From: Deltaproteobacteria bacterium
GTDB lineage: Bacteria; Desulfobacterota; BSN033; UBA1163
Assembly (NCBI GenBank): GCA_037441725.1
Contig: JBBIRT010000002.1
Coordinates: 2,111-55,560, forward strand
DNA: 53,450 bases
Direction of reading: 5' to 3'
Shown: in pieces, positions 1,590 through 29,132 of the stretch
Layout: every line of letters starts with the position of its first letter
Position numbering within the stretch: the stretch's first letter is position 1
Program-made: the position numbers and the translations under genes
The notes under the pieces: model-generated
Database searches by the model: none
What the model saw: only the letters and a program-made list of their open reading frames with translations
Told to the model about the DNA's origin: nothing

Positions 1590-1651
1590 ATTTTGAACGA
1601 TAAACAATGGACGATCCCTTTTTTAATTCTCTAAGGAAATGGTAGAAGAAC

Positions 1652-3085: not shown

Positions 3086-3090
3086 CCATT

Positions 3091-3119: not shown

Positions 3120-3158
3120 AAAATAGTGAGCTTTAGAGGTTAATCATTTTAACTCCAC

Positions 3159-3193
3159 GCCATGCGCCATGCTTTATGCGCTTTGCGACTTTA
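3159..3193. repeat. Tandem 7-nt array CGCCATG CGCCATG CTTTATG CGCTTTG CGACTTT
   Basis: Read directly. 7-nt periodicity over 5 units, ending 12 nt before the nadE start. Confidence 0.75.
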
Positions 3194-3204
3194 AGGGGTA
3201 AAGT

Positions 3205-7866: not shown

Positions 7867-7882
7867 TGGAACAAGGATTGCT
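7867..7882 (+). promoter_or_regulatory. Sigma-54 (-24/-12) promoter TGGAACAAGGATTGCT
   Basis: GG and GC elements at the canonical 12-nt register (consensus TGGCACG-N4-TTGCW). The core AAGGATTGCTC is identical to the promoter at 13060. Lies 25 nt upstream of the NifA-like ORF. Confidence 0.6.
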
Positions 7883-9696: not shown

Positions 9697-9712
9697 TGGC
9701 ACCCTTCTTGAT
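9697..9712 (+). promoter_or_regulatory. Candidate sigma-54 promoter TGGCACCCTTCTTGAT (weak -12)
   Basis: Perfect -24 TGGCAC at correct spacing, but the -12 reads TTGA instead of TTGC. About 57 nt upstream of the porin ATG. Confidence 0.4.
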
Positions 9713-11139: not shown

Positions 11140-12492
11140 ATGAAAACAATGAAACCTTTTATATTTATAATCATCTTAGCCATTCTTTTTTTCCCCACCC
11201 TATGCTCTTCACAGGAGAAGTCTGGTCCTGATTTAAAAATCATAGTAGATACGGTCTGGGTTCTGATTACTGCGGCGTTGGTCTTTTTTATGAATTTAGG
11301 ATTTGCTGCGGTAGAATCTGGTCTTTGCCGAGCAAAAAATACCGTAAATATCCTATCGAAAAATGTAATCGTCTTTTGTGCCACCAGCCTTGCCTTCTGG
11401 GCGGTTGGATTTGGCCTTATGTTTGGGGATGGAAACCCCTTCATAGGATTAAAAGGCCTTTTTCTCCTTGGGGTTGATAACAGTCCTGCATCAGGGGATG
11501 CTTATCACGGAATCTTTTCCTCTCTTAACTGGACAGGGATTCCTCTCTTTGCTAAATTCTTTTTTCAACTGGTCTTTGCTGGGACGGCTGCGACAATTGT
11601 CTCGGGGGCGGTTGCAGAGAGAATTAAGTATTTCTCATTTTTTTTCTTTTCCTTCTTGATGGGAGCAATCATCTATCCGATTCCAGGGCATTGGATTTGG
11701 GGAGGGGGATGGTTGTCCCAATTGGGTTTTAAAGACTTTGCAGGTTCAACAGTTGTTCACAGTATTGGTGGATGGTCGGCCCTTGCCGGGGCCTACCTTC
11801 TTGGACCACGAATTGGAAGATATGGATCCGATGGGAGGGTAAACCCCATACCCGGTCATAACCTTAGCCTGGCTACCATTGGAGCCTTTGTCCTATGGCT
11901 AGGATGGTTTGGATTCAATGGCGGAAGCACTATGGCTGCTGATCCTCAATCGATCTCACTTATCATTTTAAACACCAACATGGCGGCAGCTGCTGGTGGA
12001 TTGGCTGCAACCTTCACCTCCTACTTCGCCATAGGTAAACCAGACTTGAGTATGCTCCTTAACGGGCTTCTTGCAGGTCTGGTGGGAATTACGGCCGGCG
12101 CTGATGGAGCAACTGTTTTGGGATCGATCGTGATAGGATTTATTGCTGGCATCTTAGTCGTCTACAGCGTCATCTTTTTCGATCGGGTTAGGATTGATGA
12201 CCCTGTGGGTGCTATTTCTGTCCATCTCGTTAATGGAATATGGGGAACCTTTGCCGTAGGTCTCTTCAATCAGGAAGGGGGTCTTTTATATGGCGGAGGG
12301 CTGAAACAGCTCTTGATCCAGATGGTAGGAATCCTTGCCGTTGCCGTCTTCAGCTTGATCTCCAATTTTATTCTATGGAAAATTGTTCAGGGTGTTATGG
12401 GCTTGAGGGTCTCTGAAGAAGAGGAAGTTCAAGGTCTCGATATTGGCGAACATGGGATGGAAGCCTATCCAGACTTTTCATTAAAAGCCTAA
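11140..12492 (+). CDS. amt: Ammonium transporter (Amt family) with N-terminal signal sequence
   Basis: 450 aa. Typical Amt motifs ([35 protein letters not shown]) and RBS AAGGAGG. Confidence 0.93.
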
Positions 12493-12529: not shown

Positions 12530-12901
<372 letters not shown>

Positions 12902-13059: not shown

Positions 13060-13075
13060 TGGCATAAGGATTGCT
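13060..13075 (+). promoter_or_regulatory. Sigma-54 (-24/-12) promoter TGGCATAAGGATTGCT
   Basis: Near-consensus GG/GC elements at the canonical register. Predicted +1 is about nt 13086, only 2 nt before the ATG at 13088. Confidence 0.7.
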
Positions 13076-13087
13076 CTTAAATGGGCC

Positions 13088-13807
13088 ATGAAAGTTTTAA
13101 TTCTCAAACACGTAGAAATAGAAGGTCCAGGATTAATAGAAGTCTGTTTGAAAAAAGGAAAGATCCCTTACGAGATCCTTGCACTCAACTCCAGTATTTC
13201 TTTACCAAAACTTGATGCTTTCACTCATCTTGTCATCCTGGGTGGTCCCATGAATGTTTATGAAGAAGACCTCTATCCGTTTCTTAAAAAGGAGGACCTC
13301 TTCATCAAAGAGGCTCTGCAAAGAGGGAAATCGATTTTGGGGATCTGTCTGGGAGCCCAGCTGATCGCCAAAGCACTTGGTGCCAAGGTCTTTCAAGCCC
13401 CTATAAAAGAAATTGGCTGGTATAAGGTTTCTTTGACCCCATCCGGCCTTAAGGATCCCATTTTCACCAATCTTCCACAGAGCTTTATGGTATTTCAGTG
13501 GCATGAGGATACATTTGAAATTCCAAAAGGGGCAATCCTACTGGCTACCTCAACCTCCATCCCTCACCAAGCTTTCCGATATGGAGAACATGCCTATGGC
13601 CTACAATTTCATCTCGAGGTAACCGAAGAGATGATTCATAAATGGATGGAAGTTTATAATGGGGAATTGGATCAGAGTAAAAATCCTCATTCCTCAAAAG
13701 CACAAATCCTGATTGAAACTCAAAAGAATATCAATACCTACACTGGAAGAGGGCTAAAATTCTTAAAAAAATTTTTAAGATCGAGCGATGAACCACTGAC
13801 CCTTTGA
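13088..13807 (+). CDS. Stand-alone class I glutamine amidotransferase (GATase1, GuaA-like)
   Basis: 239 aa. Nucleophile elbow GICLGAQLIA and His-x-Glu (LQFHLEV). No synthase domain attached. Confidence 0.85.
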   Translation: MKVLILKHVEIEGPGLIEVCLKKGKIPYEILALNSSISLPKLDAFTHLVILGGPMNVYEEDLYPFLKKEDLFIKEALQRGKSILGICLGAQLIAKALGAKVFQAPIKEIGWYKVSLTPSGLKDPIFTNLPQSFMVFQWHEDTFEIPKGAILLATSTSIPHQAFRYGEHAYGLQFHLEVTEEMIHKWMEVYNGELDQSKNPHSSKAQILIETQKNINTYTGRGLKFLKKFLRSSDEPLTL

Positions 13808-13839
13808 ATTCTTGTACCTCTTTAATAAGGAGGAGTGAA

Positions 13840-15066
13840 ATGAAGGTAGACACCGGAGATACAGCGTGGATTTTCATCTCATCGGCCTTGGTGATGTTGA
13901 TGACCCCAGGGTTAGCCCTTTTCTATGGAGGGATGGTAAGGTCTAAAAATGTATTAGGAACAATCATGCAAAGCTTTATTGCTCTTGGGGTCATCACCAT
14001 TCAATGGGTTCTTTATGGATATAGTCTGGCTTTCGGCCCTGACATCGGACACGTAATCGGAGGTCTCAATTGGATTGGTCTCAGGGGCGTGGGGCTCGAA
14101 CCTTTCCCTGATTATTCTGCAACCGTACCCCATCAGGCCTTTATGATCTTTCAGATGATGTTTGCGGTAATTACCCCTGCTCTGATCACCGGGGCCATAG
14201 CGGAAAGATTTAAATTTAAAACCTATCTTGTCTTTCTCATCCTATGGGCCACTTTTGTCTACGACCCTCTGGCACACTGGGTCTGGGGAGTTGGGGGTTG
14301 GATCAGAAATCTTGGAGCCCTGGATTTTGCAGGAGGATTGGTTGTCCATGTCAGCTCAGGGGTGGCTGCATTGGCAGCCGCCTTAACGGTGGGAAAGAGG
14401 AAAGGTTATGGAGATGAACCGATGCCCCCCCACAATTTAACCATGACCCTTTTGGGTGCGGCCCTCCTCTGGTTCGGTTGGTTTGGATTTAATGGGGGAA
14501 GTGCAGTGGCCTCGGGTGGTCTTGCAACTAATGCCTTTGTGGTAACACATATCTCTACCGCTTCAGCAGCCCTCTCGTGGATGATGGTTGAATGGGCCTA
14601 TCGCGGGAATCCTACAGTTCTCGGGGCAGCATCAGGGGCAGTGGCTGGATTGGTTGCAATCACTCCTGCCTCAGGTTTTGTAGGACCTGTCTCCGCCATT
14701 CTCATTGGACTTGCTGCAGGTGTAGCCTGTTATTTTGCCATCAACCTAAAGAATAGACTGGGATATGACGATTCCCTCGATGTCGTTGGCGTACACGGAG
14801 TGGGCGGTACCTGGGGAGCACTGGCCACTGGCCTCTTTGCATCTAAGGCAATCAATCCTTCTGGGAATGATGGTCTATTTTTTGGCAATCTATCTCTGGT
14901 CGGAATTCAGGCCCTCAGTGTTATTTCTGCATGGATCTACTCTTTCACGGTCACTCTAATCATTTTAAAGATTCTTGATCTGACCATGGGATTGAGGGTC
15001 AGCGAGGAACATGAAATCAGTGGGCTCGATATTAGCCAGCATGGAGAAGCCGGTTACTCATTTTAA
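13840..15066 (+). CDS. amt: Ammonium transporter (Amt family), second copy
   Basis: ATG 13840 is preceded by AAGGAGG, whereas the ORF-track start 13804 lacks an RBS. Motifs [30 protein letters not shown]. Confidence 0.93.
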   Translation: MKVDTGDTAWIFISSALVMLMTPGLALFYGGMVRSKNVLGTIMQSFIALGVITIQWVLYGYSLAFGPDIGHVIGGLNWIGLRGVGLEPFPDYSATVPHQAFMIFQMMFAVITPALITGAIAERFKFKTYLVFLILWATFVYDPLAHWVWGVGGWIRNLGALDFAGGLVVHVSSGVAALAAALTVGKRKGYGDEPMPPHNLTMTLLGAALLWFGWFGFNGGSAVASGGLATNAFVVTHISTASAALSWMMVEWAYRGNPTVLGAASGAVAGLVAITPASGFVGPVSAILIGLAAGVACYFAINLKNRLGYDDSLDVVGVHGVGGTWGALATGLFASKAINPSGNDGLFFGNLSLVGIQALSVISAWIYSFTVTLIILKILDLTMGLRVSEEHEISGLDISQHGEAGYSF

Positions 15067-15150: not shown

Positions 15151-17959
<2,809 letters not shown>

Positions 17960-18785: not shown

Positions 18786-18801
18786 TGGTATGTCATTTGC
18801 T
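18786..18801 (+). promoter_or_regulatory. Sigma-54 (-24/-12) promoter TGGTATGTCATTTGCT
   Basis: GG/GC at the canonical register. Predicted +1 is about 18812, 112 nt upstream of the glnA ATG. Confidence 0.7.
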
Positions 18802-18923: not shown

Positions 18924-20246
18924 ATGGAGAAAGAGACTGTGTTGAAAATGGCAAGGGAAAATAACGTTAAATTTATTCGGCTCTGGTTCACTGACATCCT
19001 GGGGTTTTTAAAAGGGTTTGCAATCACCATTGACGAATTGGAAGGAGCCCTCGAAGAGGGGATGGGATTTGATGGCTCATCCATCCAGGGTTATGCCCGG
19101 ATAGATGAGAGCGACATGATTGCCAAACCCGATCCTAAGACCTTTCAGATCATCCCCTGGAGGCCAAAAGAAAACGCCGTCGCCAGGATGTTTGCAGACA
19201 TCTATGAACCGGATGGAACTCCTTATAAGGGTGATCCCCGATGGGTATTAAAAAGGGCCTTAAATAAGGCCCGAGATCTGGGATATACCTTCTATGTTGG
19301 TCCTGAATTGGAATACTTCTATTTCAAATCAAATGATGGGATTCCTCAAATTCTTGACCGAGGAGGTTATTTTGACCTCACCCCACTTGATGTTGCCACT
19401 GAACTCCGGCGTGAAACCATTTTAACCCTTGAGGCCATGGGGATTCATGTTGAATACAGCCATCATGAAGTGGCTCCCAGCCAACATGAGATTGATCTTA
19501 GATACGAAGAAGCCCTTACCATGGCAGACCACGCCATGACCTATCGTCTCATAGTTAAAGAGATTGCATTACGGCATGGAGTCTATGCGACCTTCATGCC
19601 CAAACCCATCTTTGGACAGAATGGAAGTGGAATGCACACCCATCAATCTCTCTTCAAGGGGGATAAGAATGCCTTTTTCGATCCTAAGGATGAATTTCAT
19701 CTTTCCAAGATAGCCAAATCCTATATTGCGGGTATTTTGAAACATTCAAAGGAGATCACTTCTATTACTTCGCAATGGGTAAATTCCTATAAGAGGCTTG
19801 TGCCGGGTTATGAAGCCCCAGTCTATATCTCCTGGGCAAGAAGAAACCGTTCTGCCCTGGTCCGAGTTCCCATGTATAAACCGGGAAAGGAAAAAGCCAC
19901 TCGGATCGAATTTCGATCACCCGATCCTGCCTGTAATCCATATCTCGCCTTTGCTGTAATGCTTGCAGCAGGATTAAAAGGGATTGAAAAGGGATATGAA
20001 CTTCCTCCACCTGTTGAAGAAGACATCTTTGAGATGTCAGAGGAGGCACGAAAGAGACACGGAATCGAATCCCTTCCCGGAAACCTTCTTGAAGCAATCC
20101 AACTTACAGAAAAAAGTGACTTAGTGCGGGAAACCCTGGGAGATCATATTTTCCAAAAATTTATTGAAAATAAAAAGATGGAATGGGATCAGTACAGGAC
20201 CCATGTCTCTCAATTTGAACTGGAGAAATATCTACCCATTTTATAG
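18924..20246 (+). CDS. glnA: Glutamine synthetase, type I (short, GSI-alpha-like)
   Basis: 440 aa. Motifs FTDILG, GFDGSSI, GPELEYF, SHHEVAPSQHEID, NGSGMHTHQS, RVP...ATRIEFRSPD. RBS AAAGGAGG. Confidence 0.95.
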   Translation: MEKETVLKMARENNVKFIRLWFTDILGFLKGFAITIDELEGALEEGMGFDGSSIQGYARIDESDMIAKPDPKTFQIIPWRPKENAVARMFADIYEPDGTPYKGDPRWVLKRALNKARDLGYTFYVGPELEYFYFKSNDGIPQILDRGGYFDLTPLDVATELRRETILTLEAMGIHVEYSHHEVAPSQHEIDLRYEEALTMADHAMTYRLIVKEIALRHGVYATFMPKPIFGQNGSGMHTHQSLFKGDKNAFFDPKDEFHLSKIAKSYIAGILKHSKEITSITSQWVNSYKRLVPGYEAPVYISWARRNRSALVRVPMYKPGKEKATRIEFRSPDPACNPYLAFAVMLAAGLKGIEKGYELPPPVEEDIFEMSEEARKRHGIESLPGNLLEAIQLTEKSDLVRETLGDHIFQKFIENKKMEWDQYRTHVSQFELEKYLPIL

Positions 20247-20279: not shown

Positions 20280-23200
20280 ATGAACCAAAATAGAAATCAT
20301 TTAACCTGGAAAAAATATCTTGAAGATTTTCTACAGCATCATTCTGACTTAAAGGTAATCGAAGATCCTGAGAAACTTGAGTACTATCGTTCTGATCTTA
20401 ATGTGGATCTCCCTCCTCTGATTCGTGATTTAATGTTAAAAAGCCTTCCGGATCTGGTTCTTCAACCCTCCACAGAAGAACACATATTAAAGATCTTTGA
20501 TTTAGCGCGTAAGCATAAAATCCCATTAACGATTCGAGGGGCTGGCACCTGGGGATATGGAGGAGCAGTCCCAACCCAGGGAGGAATTCTGATTGACCTC
20601 AACTTAATGGATAAGATTGAAGTCAATCCCGAAACCCTGGAGCTGACGGTTGGGCCAGGGGCGCGTTTTCATGACATCCACCAACAACTCGAACGATATG
20701 GACTCTCCCTTCTCAGCATGACATCTGGTAAAGGTGGAACGTTCATCGGATGGATCGCTACAGGAGGGATGGGATATGGTACCTTCCATTATGGCCCTGT
20801 AGAAAAACAGTTGATCTCCCTTCGGGTAATTTCTCCGGATGGAAGGATTCGAGAAATCAAATCAGAAGATCCAGAAATCAAATACTTTCTTTCAACAGAA
20901 GGCCAGATGGGTATCATCGTTCAAGCAACGTTAAAAATTGGGAAACAACCCTCCCGATGGTTTCCCTTTCTGCTCCCCTTTGAGACACAAGCCTCTGCCT
21001 ACACCTTGACTCAGAAGCTTTCCCATCATCCTTTCATTAAACCCGATGATCTGATGGTTTATCATAACGAATTGGTACGAATGCTCAAGTCACAATCAAA
21101 CGGAAAGATAACCATCCCTGATAAGAATCTCATGTTAGTTGTCTTTTCAAGAGAGGAAAAGGCCCAAGAATTTAAAACTTATCTGCAAGAAAATTCTATT
21201 CAACCTGCTGATGAAGAATTAGCCCACTATCTTTGGAAAGAACGATTCGTTCCAATGTCCATCAAACCGTTTGGACCATCTCTTTTAGCCGTGGAGGTTC
21301 TTCTCCCTATCGATCAGGTGGCCCCCTATTGTGAAAAGATCAGCGAGTGGGGAAAACGATTAGGCGTAAGCCTTTATCCTTCCTCCCATCTCGTGAGCAA
21401 GGATCAGGTCCTTTTCCTGGCCATGATCACCTCAGACCATCGAAAGACTATCTTCTATATTGATTTGATGCTTATTCCCATGATGGTTCGCCTTGCTGTC
21501 CAATTTTATCGAGGAAAACCCTATGGTCTTGGAATATGGAATACACCCTTTTTGCATGATCTCTATTCAAAGGAAGAGCGAAAGGATCTCATCCAATACA
21601 AAAGAAAGGTAGATCCATTAAAGATCCTGAATCCCGGAAAGTTCTTTCATGTTTCCGGAAGATTAGGTCCCCTTCAAAAAATTCTCTTCCATTCAGATCT
21701 TTTCAACCTTGAACTCGCCTCTACCCAATGGCTTCTTCTTAAACTCTTCTCCATTCTTCCGGAGAAAAAATTTCGGAAGCGCATCCCCATCCCACCACAA
21801 GGATTGGAGAAGATCGCTTATGAGGTCTTTTCTTGCGCTCAATGCGGAAATTGTGTAACTCGATGCCCAGTCTATCGGGCAACGAGGGATGAAACCTTTA
21901 CGGCACGGGGAAAACTTCTCACCATGAAGAGGGCCATAGAAACTCAAAAGATCGAACTTTCAAAAGTCCTTCCTCTTTATTTCTGTCTCCATTGTGGACG
22001 TTGTGATGAAGAGTGTCAGGTCAGCATAAACCATCGCCAGCTTTATAAGGATCTCGAGAAATATCTTTCAGATCGTATCGATTTTCCCATCCGGGAAATC
22101 ACTGACTTCGTCCAGGAGGTAGAAAAAAGTCCTGAATTTTATCGTTTTCTGGATGTCATCCGAACAGGCTTCGATCAAAAGATTCGAGAACAGCGGCAAA
22201 CCTTTTCAAAATACCGTGTTCGTATCGATGAGGAATATTGCCTTCATTGCGGGACCTGTGTGGATGCCTGCATGTATAGTGTTCGCAAACGGAATGATGC
22301 CGATCCACGTCAAGTTATCGTGGTGGATGAATCCCTGTGCCGGGGCTGTGGGGCATGTTTAGAACGTTGCCCCCAGATAGCAGCAGGCCTTCCAGCGACA
22401 TCGGTAGAACTCCATCCTGACTATCTCAGTATGGATCATCCCTATTGGAATAGCGAAGTCATATCACGGATCGACCTTGAGGCCACGACAGGAAAGATCC
22501 CCGTCTCTGGAACAGGTCAGGGAGATCCCCACCGGGGCTCGGGCAACGATGGGATTCGTTTTGGTCATTTTCATATCGTCGGGCCAGCCCAGAATCTTCT
22601 CTATGAGAGTTCTGCCGATGCGATTGCCATTCACCTTGGCCAGCGGCCTAAATATCTCAAGTTCAATGGAGTGGAGATCGAAACTCCCCCACCCCGTCTC
22701 GTCCATCTTAAAACCCCTTTAATCCTTGATATCCTTCCAGGCAATCAAAACGATGAATTATTAGATGCCATGCTGGAGGCAGCCTCCACGATGGGAACTC
22801 GTGTTACCCTCCGTTGGGAAGAGGTGAAACGATTTAGCTCAAAGATTGGAAATCGGTTGAATACCCTTATCCTTCGTCTCACCCTTGAAGACCTCAAAAA
22901 TATATTGGAGGGAAAGGAGAAGGTAAACTTGCTTAAGGATTCTCTTTTCGATTTGATTGAAATTGAATGGGAGGATTCCTTTTTGAATCATTTCAATCAA
23001 TTGAGGAGTCTCTTTTCAGAATCTCAAGTTCTCTGTGCTGTTTTAAAAGTGAAAAAAGAGGATGTCTCCCCTGAACTTCAGCTTTCTTCTGAATTTCAAA
23101 AAAGGTTAGAGTTACTTTCCCAATCCCCTTTTGATGTCCTTTGTCTTTCCTCAGATTACGACTCTGATCAAGGGTATTATCCCACGACTGATGCCGTTCC

Positions 23201-26200
23201 AGCCGTTCACCGCTTCCTGGTCTCAAGGAAAATCAGACATCGCTTTTCAATCCTTGCCTCTGGAGGTATCCGTTCTGCTGCAGATTCCCAGAAAACGATC
23301 CAGAGGGGGGCCAATGGAATCAAGATTGACTGGCCTGTCTTATTGGTGGCTGATTTCATGGCCCTAAAAAAATTCAGGCAGGGAGAAGTCATTATTCCCT
23401 TACATGATCGTTCAACCCTTATTAAAAGGTTGATCAATTTAATACGTGTTTGGAATATCCAGATCATCGAGGTCCTCGGAGCTTCTGGCTTTAAGGATAT
23501 TAAAAAAACGGTGGGTGAAGAAAATCGGCTCCTCATTTTCGACGATTTGGAAGAAAGGGTCTATGACATTTTCAAAAGTTCACCCCGACTCCAAAGAAAT
23601 AAACAATATAACCTGAAACGGATTCAAAGAGAAGGAGAATCCATTGGATGGCGATACAGCCAGTTAAAAGGATTGATTCAATCTGCCAAACACCCCCATC
23701 AATTTTATCACTGTCATCTCAATCCTGCTTGTTACCGGATCTTTGACCGAGATCATGTATGGCCTGCCTCTCTCATCGCTTCAGTGGGACGTATGGCCAG
23801 TGGGGATCGAAAGACCTTATTCCTTAACCAAACCGAGGAGCGTGGAAACTTAGGGGATGGTTTTGATTTCATTCATATTCAATTTCAACAAAATCCAGAT
23901 ACCCTCCCCGACGAGCGATTAGAGGAGGTCTCAACAGGTCTTCAAATCTCCCCTCAATTACGATTGAAAAGTCCTTTTATTGGGGCCGGAATGTCTGTAG
24001 GATCCGTTGGCCCCGGAACCTGGCGGGCTCGGGTACTGGCCACCCGGGCTCTGGGCACTCAAATGGATACCGGTGAAGGTGGGTATCCGACCTTTTTTAT
24101 TCTTGACTCAAAATGGAATCCTTTAGATCTCACTGATCAACAGGTCAATTGGCTAAGCCGTTTTATGGAAGAAAGAAAGCTTATCCCTATTGAATCATTG
24201 ATGAAACGACTTTCTCAAGAAGTTGAACCTACCCCTGAATATCAGACCCTTTTAGAAACCCTGAGGAAGTATCCTCCATCGATGACTGTTCAATATGTTC
24301 CTATTGTCACCCCTGAAGATGAACCTTTTGTCTCTACCCAATTAAAAACAGGACTCTTTGGAGTGACCAAAGAAACCATCCGTAGGGCTCGTCGGGTGGT
24401 GATTGCTTACAGCCAGGGAGCCAAACAGGGGGTAGGAGGACATTTATTGGGGAGGAAGGTCTTTGGCTTGGTCTCTCGGCTAAGGGGTGTGGCAGAAGGA
24501 GTAAGTCTTATCTCTCCATTTCCATTCCACAATTGTTATTCCATTGAAGATGTGAAGGCATTCATCGATGCCGTTCGTATGATCAACCTTAAAGCCACCA
24601 TCTGCATCAAGGTTTCACCCTCCCCTGACATTGAGTTCATTGTCTCAGGCCTTGCTCGTATTGCTAAAGACAATGACATGGTGATCGAGGTCTGGTTGGA
24701 TGGACCGCGTGGGGGGACAGGTGCAGCTCCTGACATCATCAAAGGTCAAATGGGAATGCATATGGAATATGCCATTCCCATCTGCCATGAAAAGTTGCTG
24801 GATGATGGATTAAGGGACTACGTCGTTTTTATGGGAAGTGGTGGGTTTCGAACCTGGGGAGATGTCATCAAGGGAATTGCCCTCGGATTGGATGGAGTCA
24901 TTCTTGGAACAGCCGATCTGGTGGCTATCGGTTGCGTGAGGGACCGAAACTGCGAGTCAGGGTGTCGAAGTGGCATTTCCACCATTGAACCTAAAATGCA
25001 ACTACTCAGAAATGTTGAACTGAATACCCAGCAGATCATTAACTTCCGTGCCCTTTTACAAGCCCAGACGATCCGAGCCCTCGCAGCCCTCGGGATGAAG
25101 GATATTCGAGAACTTCGTGGACGCTACGACTGTATCCAATGGTCTCTCCTCGAAGAGAGGGTTGAAAAGCGTCGTCGTCAGAGGAAGGAGCCATCCTGGG
25201 TTGAACCTGTCCCCAGCCTATCCTTGGAGCCTGCTCCTCCTTCAGATTGCGGGGTGGCGGCCATCGTATCCAATCATTTCATTCCAAGTCATGTCATGGA
25301 CCTGATGTTAGATCGAATGGCTAATCGGGGGATGGATGGGGTAGGAATCTGGAAAGGAGGATGTTACCCTAACCATTTAGAGGATTATGCCATCCATGTA
25401 TTGATTAAAGGCCCCCTCCAGACTCAGATTGAAGAAGAATATCAAAGTAGAGAACCTGATATCGATCCAGAAGAGATTCGACGTCAGGCAAGAAAAACGA
25501 TCCTGGACAGACGCCAACGAATCATGCGGGAGATTCTCAAGCAATATTTCAAAGGCCTTGATTTAAAAGATTTTGACGGCGATCTGGAAAAGAATCGAAT
25601 CCCCTATCGTCGAGATCAAGAAGGATCGGAGCAAGATTACCGAAGCTTTGGAGATAAAGATCCAGGGGATGTGTTTCGATTCTTTGTCCGGGTCAATCAG
25701 GATGAACTGAGTCGCTTCATTGAAAATGAGTTAATAAAAGATTCAATTTGGCCTCCCTGGCAGTTGCGTTATCAAGGTCTGAATCTCCAGAATTATAAAG
25801 AGAATAGAGAATTTCTCCAAGAGGCGGAGGATGAGTATATCTATCGGTTGGCTCGTCGGATCACCTTTGAAAACTATGTAAAGGACCAACAGAAAAAAGC
25901 GGCGGTTCTTTCTTGTGGAAAGAATTCGGGTTGCTGGAAAAGCGATGGCCGCCACCTTCCATGGGAGCTGCCTGATGCCCCTGTCAATATTATCCACCGA
26001 AGGTTGGCTACAGGTTCTGTAGTAGATCAAATGAACGCCCATCCCTTCTCAGAACTTCATACCGCTTTAACCCATAATGGAGAAACCACCAATTATCGGA
26101 CCATGCTCAATCGTGTGTCTCAATTCAACCTAACCCCATTAGCTCAAACCGACACGGCTGTTGCATCTCTCAAACTTCATCTACTCAGCCAGTACCTCCA

Positions 26201-27848
26201 CTATCCTTTTGATGCATTGGTTGAATCCTTTTCTCCCACCACTGGATGGAGCTTGACTCAGCTTCCCTCAGAAATGAGGGAGCGTTTTGAACGTATCCAG
26301 GAGGTAGAATTGGAAAGCGCCCCTGATGGGCCCTATCAATATCTCTGTGGACGTATCGATCCCTATCAAAGAGTAATTGAGCGTCTCGATATTATCGATC
26401 CTTCCTTGCTCAGGCCTAATGTGGCAATGCTCTATGATGATGGGGAAAATTTTGTAAGCATTATCTGCTCTGAGAAACAGGGGAGTGATGCAGGAATGCA
26501 GGAATTATTTCGATTGGGATTGATGAAGAGCACCATCTCCCCACTCATCTTTACCGTTAATCCCGGGATGCTAAGCAGGGTCTTCTATGATGAAAAAGGG
26601 AGGATTACAGGATATGAGGTGTTGGATAAATTCGGTAAGAAAATTGAGATCCCTCATGGAACCTTTCCTCCACAGAAGTCCCTCCCACTTGTGGAGGCTT
26701 CTGAGAGGATTGAATTTGAACCCAGTCCATCCCTCTTTATTAAAGATCGGCTGCCTCGCTGGAGTTTTCTGGAGTTTGAAAAGGCCTTAAAAGAATTATC
26801 GAGTAAGCTTCCTCCATCAAAGGCCATTGAGGAATTGACCTGGATTCATGATCATCTCATTGGCTGGGATACTGGAGACAAAGATAGAGGCGCTCTCATT
26901 CATACCGTAAAAAATGTGATCAACACTTTCTTAGATCATATAAGCCATAAAAAGGAATTTTTCAGGGTGACGATTGGAAAGGCAACCGAATTAAACCCCC
27001 CAGAAGACGGGGAACAGGTGTTAGTGGTCGATGCTCGTGGTTTTCGACCTGAGGGGATAGATCCCTTTAGGGTGCTAAGTCCTTTTCTCGATCATGCCCA
27101 TAAGATGGGTTGGAGGAAATTCATTGTCTACCGGGTAGAGGGTCAGCGAGGGATTGGTATGGGGATCGGTTCTGGCCAGACGAACGACACTCAGATCGAT
27201 GTTTACGGAAGCCCAGGTGAATATTGTGGTGCCTTCAATATGGGAGCCTTGGTACGGGTCCACACCCATTCACAGAACTTCACAGGGATGGTGATGCATT
27301 CAGGAACGTTAGAAATCCACGGAGATGTCGGCAAGGTCACTGGATACTCGGCCAAAGGAGGAACATTCAACATCCTCGGAAATGTTGTTGATCGTGGATG
27401 GGTCTGCGCGGTCAGTGATCCGAGAGGGCCTGGACTGGAGGTCAATATTGTGGGGACCGCTTATGAGCACCTCTGTCAGGCCTTCATGGGAGGTTCAGTA
27501 ATCATGCTGGGACTTTTTTGGGGACCGGATGGAATGCTCCATCGAATGCAGTCTCCCTATAAAGGTGGGAAAATCCTGGCCGGGGCCTCTGCAGGTGAGG
27601 TCATCTTCTATGATCCTGAGAAGAGATTAAACCAAGAGCAATATAAAAGTTGTGTTTCCAATCCCATGAATGGGAAAAAGTGGGGGGAAATTATGAACCG
27701 TCTGATGAATCTTGAAAAGATCTTTAGCCTCGGTTTTTCCAGAAAGAACGACCATCTCACGGTTAGAATGGATGGGGATTTTCAGAATCTCACCCCGGAC
27801 AAATTTCTATGGTTATTACCAAAAGGAGAATTGGAAGGGTACCATTAA
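20280..27848 (+). CDS. Giant multidomain glutamate-synthase-like fusion: FAD-linked oxidase + Fe-S modules + two GltS-type barrels + class II amidotransferase + GXGXG domain
   Basis: Single uninterrupted ORF (ATG 20280, or TTG 20271). Motifs in order: FAD PCMH-type (RGAGTWGYGG), CAQCGNCVTRCP/CLHCGRCDEEC, CLHCGTCVDAC/CRGCGACLERCP, a degenerate barrel (ASGGIRSAADS), then an FMN barrel (GAGMSVGSVG...DTGEGG, QGAKQGVGGHL, DGPRGGTGAAP, GSGGFRTWGDV, GCVRDRNCESGC). These are followed by GATase II (CGVAAIV, RGMDGVGIW, NAHPF, HNGETTNY) and a GXGXG region (GQRGIGMGIGSG ... GSPGEYCGAFNMG ... GDVGKVTGYSAKGG). Confidence 0.85.
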   Translation: MNQNRNHLTWKKYLEDFLQHHSDLKVIEDPEKLEYYRSDLNVDLPPLIRDLMLKSLPDLVLQPSTEEHILKIFDLARKHKIPLTIRGAGTWGYGGAVPTQGGILIDLNLMDKIEVNPETLELTVGPGARFHDIHQQLERYGLSLLSMTSGKGGTFIGWIATGGMGYGTFHYGPVEKQLISLRVISPDGRIREIKSEDPEIKYFLSTEGQMGIIVQATLKIGKQPSRWFPFLLPFETQASAYTLTQKLSHHPFIKPDDLMVYHNELVRMLKSQSNGKITIPDKNLMLVVFSREEKAQEFKTYLQENSIQPADEELAHYLWKERFVPMSIKPFGPSLLAVEVLLPIDQVAPYCEKISEWGKRLGVSLYPSSHLVSKDQVLFLAMITSDHRKTIFYIDLMLIPMMVRLAVQFYRGKPYGLGIWNTPFLHDLYSKEERKDLIQYKRKVDPLKILNPGKFFHVSGRLGPLQKILFHSDLFNLELASTQWLLLKLFSILPEKKFRKRIPIPPQGLEKIAYEVFSCAQCGNCVTRCPVYRATRDETFTARGKLLTMKRAIETQKIELSKVLPLYFCLHCGRCDEECQVSINHRQLYKDLEKYLSDRIDFPIREITDFVQEVEKSPEFYRFLDVIRTGFDQKIREQRQTFSKYRVRIDEEYCLHCGTCVDACMYSVRKRNDADPRQVIVVDESLCRGCGACLERCPQIAAGLPATSVELHPDYLSMDHPYWNSEVISRIDLEATTGKIPVSGTGQGDPHRGSGNDGIRFGHFHIVGPAQNLLYESSADAIAIHLGQRPKYLKFNGVEIETPPPRLVHLKTPLILDILPGNQNDELLDAMLEAASTMGTRVTLRWEEVKRFSSKIGNRLNTLILRLTLEDLKNILEGKEKVNLLKDSLFDLIEIEWEDSFLNHFNQLRSLFSESQVLCAVLKVKKEDVSPELQLSSEFQKRLELLSQSPFDVLCLSSDYDSDQGYYPTTDAVPAVHRFLVSRKIRHRFSILASGGIRSAADSQKTIQRGANGIKIDWPVLLVADFMALKKFRQGEVIIPLHDRSTLIKRLINLIRVWNIQIIEVLGASGFKDIKKTVGEENRLLIFDDLEERVYDIFKSSPRLQRNKQYNLKRIQREGESIGWRYSQLKGLIQSAKHPHQFYHCHLNPACYRIFDRDHVWPASLIASVGRMASGDRKTLFLNQTEERGNLGDGFDFIHIQFQQNPDTLPDERLEEVSTGLQISPQLRLKSPFIGAGMSVGSVGPGTWRARVLATRALGTQMDTGEGGYPTFFILDSKWNPLDLTDQQVNWLSRFMEERKLIPIESLMKRLSQEVEPTPEYQTLLETLRKYPPSMTVQYVPIVTPEDEPFVSTQLKTGLFGVTKETIRRARRVVIAYSQGAKQGVGGHLLGRKVFGLVSRLRGVAEGVSLISPFPFHNCYSIEDVKAFIDAVRMINLKATICIKVSPSPDIEFIVSGLARIAKDNDMVIEVWLDGPRGGTGAAPDIIKGQMGMHMEYAIPICHEKLLDDGLRDYVVFMGSGGFRTWGDVIKGIALGLDGVILGTADLVAIGCVRDRNCESGCRSGISTIEPKMQLLRNVELNTQQIINFRALLQAQTIRALAALGMKDIRELRGRYDCIQWSLLEERVEKRRRQRKEPSWVEPVPSLSLEPAPPSDCGVAAIVSNHFIPSHVMDLMLDRMANRGMDGVGIWKGGCYPNHLEDYAIHVLIKGPLQTQIEEEYQSREPDIDPEEIRRQARKTILDRRQRIMREILKQYFKGLDLKDFDGDLEKNRIPYRRDQEGSEQDYRSFGDKDPGDVFRFFVRVNQDELSRFIENELIKDSIWPPWQLRYQGLNLQNYKENREFLQEAEDEYIYRLARRITFENYVKDQQKKAAVLSCGKNSGCWKSDGRHLPWELPDAPVNIIHRRLATGSVVDQMNAHPFSELHTALTHNGETTNYRTMLNRVSQFNLTPLAQTDTAVASLKLHLLSQYLHYPFDALVESFSPTTGWSLTQLPSEMRERFERIQEVELESAPDGPYQYLCGRIDPYQRVIERLDIIDPSLLRPNVAMLYDDGENFVSIICSEKQGSDAGMQELFRLGLMKSTISPLIFTVNPGMLSRVFYDEKGRITGYEVLDKFGKKIEIPHGTFPPQKSLPLVEASERIEFEPSPSLFIKDRLPRWSFLEFEKALKELSSKLPPSKAIEELTWIHDHLIGWDTGDKDRGALIHTVKNVINTFLDHISHKKEFFRVTIGKATELNPPEDGEQVLVVDARGFRPEGIDPFRVLSPFLDHAHKMGWRKFIVYRVEGQRGIGMGIGSGQTNDTQIDVYGSPGEYCGAFNMGALVRVHTHSQNFTGMVMHSGTLEIHGDVGKVTGYSAKGGTFNILGNVVDRGWVCAVSDPRGPGLEVNIVGTAYEHLCQAFMGGSVIMLGLFWGPDGMLHRMQSPYKGGKILAGASAGEVIFYDPEKRLNQEQYKSCVSNPMNGKKWGEIMNRLMNLEKIFSLGFSRKNDHLTVRMDGDFQNLTPDKFLWLLPKGELEGYH

Positions 27849-28253: not shown

Positions 28254-28541
28254 ATGGCAGTAAGGATTATCATCGATCGAAAAGTGAAGAAAGGGAAAGA
28301 GCCAGAATTTTCAAAATTGATTAGAGAATTAAGAACCCTCGCTATCCCCTCAAAAGGATACATTTCTGGAGAAACCCTCCGGGCATTGGACGATCCTCAT
28401 AATTATATTGTCATTACAACCTGGCAAAGTGTGGATGATTGGAAGGCGTGGGAAAAAAATCCCGAAAGGAAGAAGATTCAAACCAAGATTGAAAAATTGA
28501 TGGCTCGACCCACCAAAACAAAAATTTACCTATATGCCTAA
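28254..28541 (+). CDS. Antibiotic-biosynthesis-monooxygenase (ABM) domain protein
   Basis: 95 aa with a ferredoxin-like ABM pattern (GYISGETL...DPHNYIVITTWQSVDDWKAW). Strong RBS GGGGGGG. Confidence 0.75.
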   Translation: MAVRIIIDRKVKKGKEPEFSKLIRELRTLAIPSKGYISGETLRALDDPHNYIVITTWQSVDDWKAWEKNPERKKIQTKIEKLMARPTKTKIYLYA

Positions 28542-29051: not shown

Positions 29052-29091
29052 TAGATCGAATCATATGATCAAACGAGTAAACCAATTCAGG

Positions 29092-29132
29092 GACCCTCGA
29101 TCCTGTTAAAACGGGATCGGGGGTCTTTTTTT
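29092..29132 (+). terminator. Intrinsic terminator/attenuator in the carA leader
   Basis: 12-bp stem GACCCTCGATCC / GGATCGGGGGTC (one G-U), ~8-nt loop, then seven Ts. Ends 14 nt before the carA GTG, and the RBS GGGGG lies after the T-run. Confidence 0.65.

What the first reader, a model, noticed from the sequence alone, without database searches (positions are those of the whole stretch)
20280..27848. ~2,520-aa single-chain, domain-permuted glutamate synthase fused to a GlcD/GlcF-like FAD/Fe-S oxidase
Directly after glnA, with no terminator, lies one ORF that fuses several modules in this order. (1) An FAD-linked PCMH-type oxidase (~20450-21650). (2) A GlcF-like double CxxCxxCxxxC module (~21834-22025). 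(3) A 2x[4Fe-4S] ferredoxin (~22239-22376). (4) A degenerate GltS-type barrel. (5) A complete GltS FMN barrel with substrate/FMN motifs and a C-x5-C-x3-C cluster motif (~23900-25140). (6) A class II amidotransferase (~25248-26450). (7) The GXGXG beta-helix domain (~27010-27600). Canonical GltB runs GATase-central-FMN-GXGXG and receives electrons from GltD or ferredoxin. Archaeal enzymes split these domains into separate proteins. Here no GltD-like NAD(P)H module is present, and the only candidate electron-input module is a 2-hydroxyacid-oxidase-type flavoenzyme. One speculative possibility follows from that. GlcD-family enzymes include D-2-hydroxyglutarate and D-lactate dehydrogenases, so the protein could couple oxidation of a 2-hydroxyacid (even 2-hydroxyglutarate to 2-oxoglutarate) directly to reductive glutamate synthesis. 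I am not aware of a described enzyme with this architecture.
Basis: partly seen in the sequence, partly recalled or inferred. Interest (0 to 1): 0.85.

Follow-up and report, generated by a model that had tools for sequence, protein, structure and literature searches.

The report
Giant fused glutamate synthase, unknown donor
One 2,522-residue gene next to glutamine synthetase fuses a whole four-gene glutamate synthase operon, and its electron-input part is a lactate-dehydrogenase-like flavoprotein instead of the usual NAD(P)H or ferredoxin module, so it likely represents an uncharacterised class of this central nitrogen-assimilation enzyme.

Summary
ORF 20280-27848 (2,522 aa) is intact, and every domain call is supported by profile, fold or motif evidence.

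It is not a chimera. More than 200 protein clusters and 108 loci in species-representative genomes carry the same full-length architecture. They come from Syntrophaceae-like MAGs and from Calditrichota, KSB1, Vulcanimicrobiota, Krumholzibacteria and Gemmatimonadota MAGs.

The decisive result is that six loci in other uncultured bacteria and one archaeon encode the same modules as three or four adjacent genes in the same order. Those genes are FAD/Fe-S, ferredoxin plus central-like barrel, FMN barrel, and amidotransferase plus GXGXG. The "permutation" is therefore a fused operon.

The amidotransferase catalytic set and all Fe-S cysteines are invariant across phyla. Cys1657 follows a hypervariable linker, so self-cleavage into about 188 and 99 kDa chains is likely. 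This is inferred, not shown.

The FAD module has the D-lactate dehydrogenase fold. It lacks that family's His-His-Glu metal site, with PYGxGxWN in place of EHGxG. The 2-hydroxyacid donor idea is therefore unsupported, and the donor remains unknown.

Verdict: a probable glutamate synthase of a new, widespread, uncharacterised variant.

The parts
18924..20246 (+). glnA (glutamine synthetase, 440 aa). It lies immediately upstream and is probably co-transcribed.
   Evidence: Gln-synt_C at E 6e-133. A 33-nt spacer separates it from the next gene, with no terminator-like site. glnA sits immediately upstream of the fusion gene in 32 of the 36 clade-S loci that had context hits.
20280..27848 (+). Fusion ORF of 2,522 aa, 287 kDa as a precursor.
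   Evidence: Full-length homologues appear.
20412..21659 (+). VAO/PCMH-type flavoprotein module (FAD-binding domain plus cap domain, aa ~45-460). It is the proposed electron entry point.
   Evidence: Pfam hits. PDB profile match to LctD at 6e-30. Foldseek match to mLDHD and LctD at TMt 0.71-0.78. The signature W319, R322, P325, Y415, W420 is conserved in most fused and split homologues compared.
21825..22028 (+). GlcF-N-terminal-like domain with 2 x CxxCxxCxxxC, implying two [4Fe-4S] clusters. No CCG domains follow it.
   Evidence: Fer4_8 and Fer4_17 hits. All eight Cys are invariant in 103 clade-S members and across phyla.
22218..22376 (+). Ferredoxin-like 2x[4Fe-4S] domain.
   Evidence: Fer4_10 and Fer4_7 hits. 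All eight Cys are invariant.
22377..23813 (+). Central-like module. It contains a very conserved segment (aa 720-800, GKIPVSGTGQGD...FGHFHIVGPAQN) and a degenerate (beta/alpha) barrel (aa ~800-1110) that keeps an SGGIR...D..K...RGA motif.
   Evidence: Weak Pfam hits. A collinear weak match to the GltS central domain residues 580-678 of 7mfm_G. Paralogy to the FMN barrel and homology to gene 2 of the split operons. The AF2 model shows alternating strand and helix at aa 784-1009 with pLDDT 60-85.
23814..25142 (+). GltS FMN/2-oxoglutarate (synthase) barrel.
   Evidence: Pfam Glu_synthase at E 5e-76. PDB GltS large chains at E 1e-37. The motifs QGAK, GGTGA and SPFPFHNCYSIED are aligned.
24933..24965 (+). 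C1552-x5-C1558-x3-C1562, the three-Cys cluster motif. It aligns with the GltS [3Fe-4S] ligands.
   Evidence: Alignment to 7mfm, 2vdc and 1ea0. The three Cys are invariant across phyla, and no fourth invariant Cys lies nearby.
25164..25247 (+). Hypervariable linker before the amidotransferase. It is the proposed cleaved junction.
   Evidence: Its length and sequence vary among 103 close homologues, and it is followed by the invariant P[SA]D-CGVAAIVSN. It is disordered in the AF2 model. It corresponds to the gene 3 / gene 4 boundary of the split operons.
25248..26579 (+). Class II (Ntn) glutamine amidotransferase domain. It starts at Cys1657 and carries large insertions.
   Evidence: Foldseek hits to GltS, GlmS, AsnS and PurF. 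The profile aligns to GlmS residues 68-128. C1657, R1908, N1933, G1934 and D1958 are invariant across phyla.
27009..27689 (+). GXGXG beta-helix domain (GltS C-terminal domain / FwdC-like).
   Evidence: Pfam GXGXG hit. FwdC at 3e-8. Foldseek hits to FwdC and FhcC. Strands fill model residues 640-875.
28254..28541 (+). 95-aa ABM-domain ORF. It is conserved directly downstream in the Syntrophaceae-like clade, and its role is unknown.
   Evidence: Pfam ABM at E 8e-13. It is present at 76-92% identity in 26 clade-S loci between the fusion gene and carA.

Best explanation
The ORF encodes a glutamine:2-oxoglutarate amidotransferase (GOGAT) of a modular type. It arose by fusing a conserved operon of three or four genes into one gene.

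Shown here:
- The domain identities, the invariant catalytic and cofactor ligands, and collinearity with the split operons.
- The nitrogen-assimilation setting: amtB-glnK-amtB-glnD-glnA-[this gene]-carAB.

Inferred electron path:
- Two electrons enter at the N-terminal VAO-type FAD from a donor that is not identified.
- They pass through four [4Fe-4S] clusters, two in the GlcF-like domain and two in the ferredoxin-like domain, to the three-Cys cluster and the FMN of the synthase barrel.
- This is the same wiring logic as GltD-GltB or dihydropyrimidine dehydrogenase, with a different entry flavoprotein.

Inferred chemistry:
- Glutamine is hydrolysed at the Ntn amidotransferase.
- The ammonia is channelled to the FMN site, where 2-iminoglutarate is reduced to glutamate.
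- The GXGXG helix is structural.

Inferred processing:
- Ntn amidotransferases need the free alpha-amino group of Cys1.
- The precursor is therefore most likely cleaved between Asp1656 and Cys1657.
- This would give a ~188-kDa electron-transfer/synthase chain and a ~99-kDa amidotransferase/GXGXG chain that stay associated.
For: - Domain calls.
- Conservation: all 16 Fe-S Cys, C1552/C1558/C1562, C1657, R1908, N1933-G1934 and D1958 are invariant between clades that share only 31-45% identity.
- Catalytic set: the last four residues align to GlmS Arg73, Asn98-Gly99 and Asp123 (residue roles from the GlmS literature, my own knowledge).
- Split operons: six loci have the order FAD/Fe-S, then Fd plus central-like barrel, then FMN barrel, then GATase plus GXGXG. 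They come from a Chloroflexota MAG (L079), Aminicenantia, a Thermoplasmatota archaeon and three unnamed assemblies, one of them a 4.6-Mb contig.
- Collinearity: their products map to aa 19-624, 647-1103, 1136-1632 and 1657-2495. The alignment starts exactly at Cys1657 in 4 of 6 cases.
- Dedicated subunit: the FAD/Fe-S gene sat in such an operon in every split case examined.
- Cleavage: a hypervariable linker precedes an invariant CGVAA. The split amidotransferase subunits carry 8-44-aa leaders before G-G-CGV, as canonical GltB carries a propeptide (own knowledge). In the AF2 model Cys1657 opens the first beta strand and the preceding 16 residues are disordered.
- Context: a nitrogen locus, and glnA-fusion-ABM-carAB synteny in the clade.
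- Self-sufficiency: no GltD is in the window. The distant-clade genes have unrelated neighbours, which argues that the protein needs no adjacent partner.
Against: - There are no experimental data for any member, and all carriers are uncultured MAGs.
- NCBIfam equivalog cutoffs for GltB (143 against 1047 bits) and GlcD (77 against 568) are missed by far.
- The cluster motif spacing differs from canonical GltS (C-x5-C-x3-C against C-x5-C-x4-C).
- The amidotransferase has about 250 residues between Cys1 and the Arg. AF2 gives pLDDT below 50 to its most conserved core, model residues 269-356.
- The N-terminal model is poor overall (pLDDT 61, pTM 0.44). No inter-cluster distances or tunnels could be assessed.
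- Cleavage at Cys1657 is pure inference.
- glnA adjacency holds only in the Syntrophaceae-like clade.
- I could not test whether these genomes also carry gltBD or gdhA.
Confidence: 0.7

Rival explanations
1. The FAD module is a D-2-hydroxyacid dehydrogenase acting on D-lactate, glycolate or D-2-hydroxyglutarate. Oxidation of that acid directly drives glutamate synthesis.
For: - The closest solved relatives by sequence and fold are LctD, mouse LDHD, a D-lactate dehydrogenase, D2HGDH and RPA1076.
- The W-x-x-R motif aligns with the W-x-x-R of LctD and LDHD. Its Arg binds the substrate carboxylate in that family (own knowledge).
- The D-lactate/pyruvate couple (about -190 mV, own knowledge) would be thermodynamically sufficient.
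Against: - The family's metal-binding and catalytic His-x6-His and Glu-His are not kept. HxGDGNxH aligns to SSHLVSKDQVL, and GEHGIG aligns to GKPYGLG.
- None of the 147 nearest representatives scanned has either motif.
- His370 is not conserved in the wider GltS-associated group.
- The cap domain has no significant sequence match to any solved structure.
- The GlcD equivalog score is 77 against a cutoff of 568.
- No lactate, glycolate or hydroxyglutarate transport or metabolism genes recur near the gene.
Confidence: 0.2
2. The physiological reductant is a protein such as reduced ferredoxin, or an NfnAB/GltD-like or ETF partner. It docks on the Fe-S domains or on the FAD domain. The VAO-type module would then be a docking, structural or regulatory relic rather than a substrate dehydrogenase.
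For: - Archaeal-type GltS FMN subunits with only an N-terminal 2x[4Fe-4S] domain exist (own knowledge).
- Geobacter GSU1235-1239 pairs a glutamate synthase-related protein with separate Fe-S and pyridine-nucleotide oxidoreductase genes (PMC2725144).
- In the Thermoplasmatota split locus, an NfnA-like and GltD-like gene pair lies directly downstream.
- LctD, the best match, works in complex with EtfAB (name of PDB entry 7qh2).
- The canonical active-site residues are lost.
Against: - The cap domain keeps its own strongly conserved signature across phyla and in the split subunits: W319, R322, P325, Y415, W420. This argues for a maintained active site.
- The FAD-binding motifs are intact.
- The partner genes are absent from the window and from five of six split loci and all fused loci examined.
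Confidence: 0.15
3. The protein is not a glutamate synthase. The GltS-like barrel, amidotransferase and GXGXG modules would aminate or reduce a different 2-oxo or imine substrate, or work in a catabolic direction.
For: - The family is far below the GltB equivalog cutoff.
- It has an extra barrel with a flavin-phosphate-like motif, large insertions and altered cluster spacing.
- The distant clade has no nitrogen-gene neighbours.
- Other giant "glutamate synthase-related" proteins of unknown role exist (P0198-P0201).
Against: - The FMN-barrel substrate and FMN motifs align residue for residue with GltS.
- The best PDB and Pfam matches are GltS only.
- The complete glutaminase catalytic set is present.
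- The tight glnA-gene synteny sits inside an amtB/glnK/glnD/carAB locus.
Confidence: 0.08
4. The long ORF is an assembly chimera or a read-through artefact.
For: None found. A few homologous loci are broken (L056, L059, L067).
Against: - An identical-architecture ORF occurs in more than 200 protein clusters from independent projects, and in 108 loci in species-representative genomes, including multi-megabase contigs.
- 46 of the 76 fetched loci hold an uninterrupted ORF longer than 2,400 aa.
- L067 is broken by a frameshift inside the conserved FMN domain, not at a domain border. L056 and L059 are fragmented into several frames with no N runs.
Confidence: 0.01

Closest known systems
Bacterial NADPH-glutamate synthase GltB/GltD and ferredoxin-glutamate synthase (PDB 1ea0, 2vdc, 6s6s, 7mfm, 1ofd, 1llw)
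   Same: - An Ntn class II amidotransferase.
- A central-type barrel followed by an FMN barrel with the same substrate and FMN motifs.
- A three-Cys cluster site.
- A GXGXG beta-helix.
- In the NADPH enzyme, a flavin to Fe-S to [3Fe-4S] to FMN electron wire.

   Different: - The amidotransferase lies after the FMN barrel rather than at the N-terminus.
- The entry module is a VAO-type FAD protein plus four [4Fe-4S] clusters, not GltD or free ferredoxin.
- The cluster spacing is C-x5-C-x3-C.
- The amidotransferase and the FMN barrel carry large insertions.
- The score is 143 bits against the 1047-bit GltB cutoff.
Split, multi-gene ("archaeal-type") glutamate synthases: Geobacter GSU1235-1239 (PMC2725144), Sphaerochaeta/clostridial SpiBuddy_0108-0113 (PMC3372971), and the putative F420-dependent GltS of methanogens (PMC3448663)
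   Same: - GltS domains occur as separate modules.
- A 2x[4Fe-4S] domain lies ahead of a barrel.
- Electron-input subunits are interchangeable.
- Direct split homologues of the present protein exist with the same order.
   Different: - Those systems use pyridine-nucleotide-disulfide oxidoreductase or FrhB/FpoF-type input subunits. This family uses a GlcD/LDHD-fold FAD protein.
- Here all modules are fused in one gene.
- None of those papers describes this input module.
GlcD/LDHD/LctD/D2HGDH D-2-hydroxyacid dehydrogenases, and GlcD-GlcF fusions such as YdiJ
   Same: - The two-domain VAO/PCMH fold with FAD_binding_4.
- The W-x-x-R motif.
- A following 2 x CxxCxxCxxxC Fe-S domain, as in GlcF and YdiJ.

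   Different: - There is no His-His-Glu metal site: PYGxGxWN replaces EHGxG.
- There are no CCG (HdrB/GlcF C-terminal) domains.
- Electrons are predicted to go to an internal FMN enzyme, not to quinone or ETF.
- The score is far below the family cutoffs.
Dihydropyrimidine dehydrogenase (own knowledge)
   Same: The design principle is the same: an entry flavin is linked through four [4Fe-4S] clusters to an FMN (beta/alpha) barrel that reduces the substrate.
   Different: The entry domain family is different (GltD-like NADPH/FAD), and there is no amidotransferase or GXGXG domain. This resemblance was not tested here beyond the domain logic.

Membership tests
Glutamate synthase (GOGAT) | FMN-binding (beta/alpha)8 synthase domain with 2-oxoglutarate and FMN motifs | tested here: met
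   Pfam PF01645 at E 5e-76. PDB GltS chains at E 1e-37, with QGAK, SPxPxHxxYSIED and GGTGA motifs aligned.
Glutamate synthase (GOGAT) | Class II (Ntn) amidotransferase with Cys1, Arg, Asn-Gly and Asp | tested here: met
   Foldseek hits to GltS, GlmS, AsnS and PurF. The profile aligns to GlmS 68-128. C1657, R1908, N1933, G1934 and D1958 are invariant across phyla.
Glutamate synthase (GOGAT) | The nucleophile Cys is the mature N-terminal residue | not testable with these tools
   Cys1657 is internal in the gene. A hypervariable linker precedes it, and the split homologues carry leaders before the same Cys, which suggests processing. Protein chemistry is needed.
Glutamate synthase (GOGAT) | Three-Cys [3Fe-4S] site after the FMN barrel | tested here: met
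   C1552, C1558 and C1562 align with the GltS ligands and are invariant. The spacing is x5/x3 instead of x5/x4.
Glutamate synthase (GOGAT) | GXGXG beta-helix C-terminal domain | tested here: met
   PF01493 at 33.5-36.7 bits against a cutoff of 32.5. FwdC at 3e-8. Foldseek hits to FwdC and FhcC.
Glutamate synthase (GOGAT) | Central domain between the amidotransferase and the FMN domain; canonical order GATase-central-FMN-GXGXG | tested here: not met
   A central-like barrel is present, but the order is central-FMN-GATase-GXGXG.
Glutamate synthase (GOGAT) | Reductant NAD(P)H via GltD, or reduced ferredoxin | tested here: not met
   There is no GltD, Pyr_redox or Fer4_20 domain in the ORF or the window. 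Use of free ferredoxin cannot be excluded.
Glutamate synthase (GOGAT) | NCBIfam equivalog score for GltB | tested here: not met
   NF008730 scores 143.4 bits against a cutoff of 1047.
GlcD/LDHD-type D-2-hydroxyacid dehydrogenases | FAD_binding_4 domain and VAO-type cap-domain fold | tested here: met
   PF01565 at E 3e-32. Foldseek matches to mLDHD, LctD and D-LDH over 430-500 columns, TMt 0.71-0.78.
GlcD/LDHD-type D-2-hydroxyacid dehydrogenases | His-x6-His and Glu(-His) metal-binding and catalytic residues (HxGDGNxH, EHGxG) | tested here: not met
   The aligned positions read SSHLVSKDQVL and GKPYGLG. Neither motif occurs in the 147 nearest representatives scanned.
GlcD/LDHD-type D-2-hydroxyacid dehydrogenases | NCBIfam equivalog score for GlcD or YdiJ | tested here: not met
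   TIGR00387 scores 77 against 568, and NF049975 scores 30 against 1350.
GlcF/HdrD-type Fe-S subunits | N-terminal 2 x CxxCxxCxxxC plus C-terminal CCG domains | tested here: not met
   The Fer4_8 part is present. There is no CCG (PF02754) hit in the ORF, although relatives of 860-1030 aa match HdrB/GlpC/TfrB-type models that contain CCG domains and carry PF02754.
Split modular (archaeal-type) GltS operons with a FAD/Fe-S first gene (defined here) | Collinear homology to the four gene products FAD/Fe-S, Fd plus central-like barrel, FMN barrel, and GATase plus GXGXG | tested here: met
   BLASTP of 6 operons against the ORF gives aa 19-624, 647-1103, 1136-1632 and 1657-2495.

The most novel reading that the evidence does not exclude
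This family would be a new class of glutamate synthase. Its reducing power would come neither from NAD(P)H nor from ferredoxin, but from direct oxidation of a small organic substrate at a previously uncharacterised subfamily of VAO-type flavoproteins carrying the PYGxGxWN signature.

The giant precursor would mature by self-cleavage at an internal Ntn cysteine 1,656 residues from its N-terminus. It could be the GOGAT of many uncultured anaerobic lineages. The extra central-like barrel might bind a second flavin.
Probability: 0.3. Interest if true: 0.85.

Novelty: new variant of a known kind. Interest (0 to 1): 0.7.

Why it matters
GOGAT is one of the two entry points of inorganic nitrogen into biomass. 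Its known classes are defined by their reductant: NADPH, NADH or ferredoxin, with F420 proposed.

This family attaches a different, dedicated entry flavoprotein. That attachment is conserved from a Thermoplasmatota archaeon and a Chloroflexota MAG (split form) to Syntrophaceae-like, Calditrichota and KSB1 bacteria (fused form).

If the donor is a metabolite rather than a pyridine nucleotide, nitrogen assimilation in many sediment and groundwater anaerobes would be wired directly to a specific carbon or redox pool. Metabolic reconstructions that currently list "FAD-binding protein" would then miss their GOGAT.

The fused and split pairs also give a clean natural experiment on operon-to-polyprotein fusion. 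They also raise the question of how an internal Ntn nucleophile is matured.

Tried and rejected
- **Assembly chimera:** rejected by recurrence.
- **Natural split at the linker in L067:** rejected. It is a frameshift inside the FMN domain. L056 and L059 are also fragmented ORFs.
- **Canonical metal triad in the cap domain:** looked for and not found.
- **A fourth invariant Cys for a [4Fe-4S] cluster in the FMN domain:** none across clades.
- **GltD, ETF, Nfn or lactate genes near the gene:** none in the window or at the fused loci. One locus, L083, has an Nfn/GltD-like pair.
- **Rfam scan of the window:** no RNA family found.
- **Sigma-54 consensus scan:** hits lie upstream of several nitrogen genes, but there are no more than chance overall.
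- **N-terminal AF2 model:** too poor in the Fe-S and aa 700-780 regions to judge domain packing.
- **Foldseek of that model:** dominated by the FAD module, so it gave no test of the central-like barrel.
- **Origin of the window:** an exact look-up of the window protein found no record or organism name.
- **Literature:** six searches found no paper on this architecture. The library omits most subscription journals, so this is absence in that library only.


Full report
**1. Observation**

The window holds one uninterrupted ORF on the + strand, from 20271 (TTG) or 20280 (ATG) to 27848. It is 2,522 aa from the ATG. It begins 33 nt after the stop of a 440-aa glutamine synthetase (Gln-synt_C E 6e-133). 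A purine-rich stretch precedes the ATG, and no terminator-like hairpin lies between the two genes.

Pfam on the whole protein and on six overlapping segments gives the following:
- FAD_binding_4, aa 57-193 (E 3e-32).
- FAD-oxidase_C, aa 231-454 (E 1.5e-3).
- Fer4_8/Fer4_17, aa 516-583.
- A Fer4 dicluster, aa 647-699.
- A weak Glu_synthase hit at aa 967-1020 (E 5e-5) and a weak Glu_syn_central hit (E 0.086).
- Glu_synthase, aa 1179-1606 (E 5e-76).
- GATase_6, aa 1895-1961 (E 1e-6).
- GXGXG, aa 2301-2459 (above the Pfam cutoff).

Its start of the amidotransferase, nt 25248, is the codon of Cys1657.

**2. Not an artefact, and not rare**

A search of 5.8 billion clustered proteins returned more than 120 full-length clusters of 2,500-2,570 aa at 64-83% identity. 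Where they are named at all, they are called "FAD-binding protein [Syntrophaceae bacterium]" or [quoted passage not shown].

A scan of one genome per GTDB species found 108 loci.
- One clade (here "S") comes from Syntrophaceae-like and "Deltaproteobacteria" MAGs, at 63-86% identity.
- A second clade ("D") comes from Calditrichota, KSB1, Zhuqueibacterota, Vulcanimicrobiota, Krumholzibacteriia and Gemmatimonadota MAGs. It is 31-45% identical over residues ~20-2521.

Clade D members are single ORFs of 2,830-2,990 aa with the same Pfam architecture. Still more distant giant versions exist, such as P0255 at 3,016 aa. Every carrier is an uncultured MAG.

Three loci have broken ORFs. L067 is broken by a frameshift inside the conserved FMN domain, not at a domain border. 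L056 and L059 are fragmented into several frames.

**3. The genomic setting**

The window is a nitrogen-assimilation locus. In order it carries:
- an NtrB/NtrC-like pair (18-3085);
- a glutamine-dependent NAD synthetase (3205-4938);
- a GAF/sigma-54 activator (7907-9538);
- a porin (9769-10920);
- amtB (11140-12492), glnK (12563-12901), a class I amidotransferase (13088-13807) and a second amtB (13804-15066);
- glnD (15371-17959) and glnA (18924-20246);
- the fusion gene, then a 95-aa ABM-domain ORF (28254-28541);
- carA and carB.

In clade S the order glnA, fusion, ABM, carAB is nearly universal. In clade D the neighbours are unrelated, apart from one NtrB/NtrC-like pair.

No GltD- or GltB-like gene occurs anywhere else in the window.

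**4. The decisive comparison: split operons**

A profile of residues 1-720 was searched against 1.84 billion representatives. Apart from the fusions, the nearest relatives fall into two groups:
- proteins of about 610-750 aa (FAD module plus Fer4_8);
- proteins of about 1,150-1,350 aa (FAD, Fe-S, ferredoxin domain and a Glu_synthase-type barrel).

I examined six of their loci, and all six are operons with the same order.

| Locus | Source | Gene products (aa), in order |
|---|---|---|
| L079 | Chloroflexota MAG | 1176 (FAD-Fe-S-Fd-barrel), 537 (FMN barrel), 909 (GATase plus GXGXG) |
| L080/L081 | unnamed ENA/NCBI assembly | 1248, 542, 901 |
| L082 | 4.6-Mb contig | 659, 561, 531, 844 |
| L083 | Thermoplasmatota archaeon | 675, 463, 502, 877 |
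| L084 | Aminicenantia | 663, 392, 485, 831 |
| L085 | JGI metagenome | 648, 463, 415, 854 |

BLASTP of these products against the window protein maps them collinearly:
- gene 1 to aa 19-624;
- gene 2 to aa 647-1103;
- gene 3 to aa 1136-1632;
- gene 4 to aa 1657-2495, with the alignment starting exactly at Cys1657 in four of six cases.

Three conclusions follow.
- The window gene is a fusion of this operon. The "permuted" order relative to GltB is simply the operon's gene order.
- The FAD/Fe-S protein is a dedicated component of this kind of glutamate synthase in both bacteria and archaea.
- The "degenerate barrel" is a real module, namely gene 2. It is paralogous to the FMN barrel (aa 968-1104 against 1492-1614). 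It also aligns weakly but collinearly with the GltS central domain (residues 580-678 of 7mfm_G).

This barrel keeps an SGGIR...D..K...RGA motif that is invariant across clades. Whether it binds a second flavin cannot be decided here.

**5. Catalytic competence of the GOGAT half**

The FMN barrel aligns with the GltS large chains (E 1e-37). The QGAK-G-GG, SPxPxHxxYSIED and GGTGA motifs and the three cluster cysteines are in register.

C1552, C1558 and C1562 are invariant across clades. No fourth invariant Cys is nearby. This fits a [3Fe-4S] site, although the spacing is x5/x3 rather than x5/x4.

For the amidotransferase, the AF2 model of aa 1641-2522 has pLDDT 74.8 and pTM 0.77. Its best Foldseek hits are:
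- the GltS alpha subunits, GlmS, asparagine synthetase and PurF, which are all Ntn class II amidotransferases;
- FwdC and FhcC for the beta-helix.

A cross-clade profile aligns aa ~1905-1965 to GlmS residues 68-128. On that alignment R1908, N1933-G1934 and D1958 correspond to GlmS Arg73, Asn98-Gly99 and Asp123. The roles of those residues are from the GlmS literature (my own knowledge). Together with C1657 they are invariant between clades that share only 31-45% identity.

One caveat applies. AF2 gives low confidence to exactly this conserved core (model residues 269-356).

**6. The internal nucleophile**

Ntn amidotransferases use the free alpha-amino group of Cys1, and canonical GltB and PurF are made with propeptides that are removed (established knowledge). 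Four observations bear on Cys1657 here:
- It follows a linker that is hypervariable in length and sequence even among close relatives. The linker is followed by the invariant P-[SA]-D-CGVAAIVSN.
- The linker is disordered, and Cys1657 opens the first strand in the model.
- The position coincides with the gene 3 / gene 4 boundary of the split operons.
- The stand-alone amidotransferase subunits themselves carry 8-44-residue leaders before G-G-CGV[IL]G.

I therefore infer self-cleavage of the 287-kDa precursor into chains of 188.5 and 98.8 kDa (masses). This step is inferred, not shown.

**7. The electron-input half**

The N-terminal module has the complete two-domain fold of D-lactate dehydrogenases. 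Foldseek hits are mouse LDHD at E 6e-23, LctD of the Ldh-EtfAB complex, an isopod D-LDH, RPA1076 and AGPS, with TMt 0.6-0.78.

By sequence, only the FAD-binding domain matches solved structures significantly. In the cap domain:
- the family's HxGDGNxH and EHGxG metal-binding and catalytic motifs align to SSHLVSKDQVL and GKPYGLG;
- none of the 147 nearest representatives scanned has either motif, and many share PYGxGxWN;
- the signature W319-x-x-R322-x-x-P325 ... P-Y415-x-x-G-x-W420 is kept in most fused and split GltS-associated subunits compared, while His370 is not.

The conserved W-x-x-R aligns with the motif in LctD and LDHD, whose Arg binds the substrate carboxylate in that family (own knowledge). 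A carboxylic-acid substrate therefore remains possible. Even so, this is a distinct, uncharacterised subfamily, and homology does not identify the donor. NCBIfam scores are far below the GlcD and YdiJ cutoffs.

Downstream lie two CxxCxxCxxxC pairs of the GlcF-N-terminal type, without CCG domains. A ferredoxin-like dicluster domain follows. All 16 Cys are invariant.

The simplest reading is a wire from FAD, through four [4Fe-4S] clusters and the three-Cys cluster, to FMN. This is analogous to GltD-GltB and to dihydropyrimidine dehydrogenase. No inter-cofactor distances could be tested, because the N-terminal model is poor in these regions (pLDDT 61).

**8. Comparison with what is known**

The protein works like a glutamate synthase and contains all GltS catalytic modules. 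It fails the canonical definition on domain order, reductant module and equivalog score.

Its kin are the modular or split ("archaeal-type") systems:
- Geobacter GSU1235-1239, with a pyridine-nucleotide-disulfide oxidoreductase and an Fe-S protein (PMC2725144);
- the multi-gene clostridial-type cluster in Sphaerochaeta (PMC3372971);
- the putative F420-dependent enzymes of methanogens (PMC3448663).

These set the precedent that the electron-input subunit of this enzyme is exchangeable. None of them uses a VAO-type flavoprotein. Six full-text searches found no description of this input module or of the giant fusion. The searchable library omits most subscription journals.

**9. Verdict**

The best-supported interpretation is a GOGAT of a new variant. 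It is widespread in uncultured anaerobes, and here it is fused from an operon and placed behind glnA.

It loses its main support, because two of the three defining metal-site positions of those dehydrogenases are substituted.

My confidence in the separate claims is:

| Claim | Confidence |
|---|---|
| It is a GOGAT | ~0.8 |
| The FAD module is the electron entry | ~0.65 |
| Cleavage occurs at Cys1657 | ~0.6 |
| The donor is a small organic acid | ~0.3 |

Novelty: a new variant of a known kind. Interest: 0.7.

Noticed in passing
window 28254-28541 (+): A 95-aa ABM-domain (antibiotic biosynthesis monooxygenase-like) ORF is conserved at 76-92% identity directly downstream of the fusion gene in 26 Syntrophaceae-like loci. 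It always lies between the fusion gene and carA. Its role is unknown, and it may belong to the same transcription unit.
   Followed up: partly
window 29089-29128 (+): A very strong terminator-like hairpin (18 pairs, then a T-run) sits just upstream of carA. It is the first such site after glnA and the fusion gene. It suggests that the glnA-fusion-(ABM) unit ends here.
   Followed up: no
window 7867-7882, 9697-9712, 13060-13075, 18786-18801 (+): Sigma-54-type -24/-12 matches (TGGCAC-N5-TTGCW, 1-2 mismatches) lie just upstream of the GAF/sigma-54 activator, the porin, the class I amidotransferase-amtB pair and glnA. The total number of hits in the window is no more than chance (15 against 15.6 expected), so only their positions are suggestive.
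   Followed up: partly
window 13088-13807 (+): A 239-aa class I glutamine amidotransferase sits between glnK and the second amtB, and its end overlaps the amtB start (13804). The same arrangement is seen in L008 and L011. Its function in this locus is unknown.
   Followed up: no
window 18-4938 (+): A GAF-histidine kinase, an NtrC-like sigma-54 activator and a glutamine-dependent NAD synthetase (CN_hydrolase plus NAD_synthase) open the window. The whole first 34 kb therefore looks like one nitrogen-regulated region.
   Followed up: no
window 5094-7600 (-): A DUF362 protein is followed by a 527-aa polyferredoxin-like protein with several Fer4 domains and Fer4_5. The pair lies on the opposite strand, within the nitrogen locus.
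   Followed up: no
window 46615-48921 (+): A 768-aa Prismane/CO-dehydrogenase-family protein carries an inserted Fer4_8 dicluster domain (aa 389-443).
   Followed up: no
L083 8150-10425: In the Thermoplasmatota archaeon, an NfnA-like gene (NAD_binding_1/DHODB_Fe-S_bind) and a GltD/NfnB-like gene (Fer4_20 plus Pyr_redox_2) lie directly downstream of the split FAD/Fe-S-GltS operon. This is the only examined locus with a pyridine-nucleotide-linked candidate partner.
   Followed up: no
proteins P0198-P0201: A different family of giant "glutamate synthase-related" proteins (2,138-2,201 aa) has only a Glu_synthase Pfam hit, for example from Candidatus Eisenbacteria. They share about 24% identity with the FMN region. 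Their architecture was not examined.
   Followed up: no
proteins P0241, P0265, P0273 and similar: The PYGxGxWN signature that replaces EHGxG also occurs in many stand-alone ~480-aa GlcD-like flavoproteins and in ~860-1030-aa FAD/Fe-S/CCG fusions. This points to a large VAO subfamily with no solved or characterised member among the PDB matches.
   Followed up: partly
L056, L059, L067: Homologous genes are broken into several frames in two MFD-series MAGs with contig_-style names (L056, L059) and one Illumina MAG (L067). In L067 the break is a frameshift inside the FMN domain. These are likely sequencing errors or pseudogenes.
   Followed up: yes
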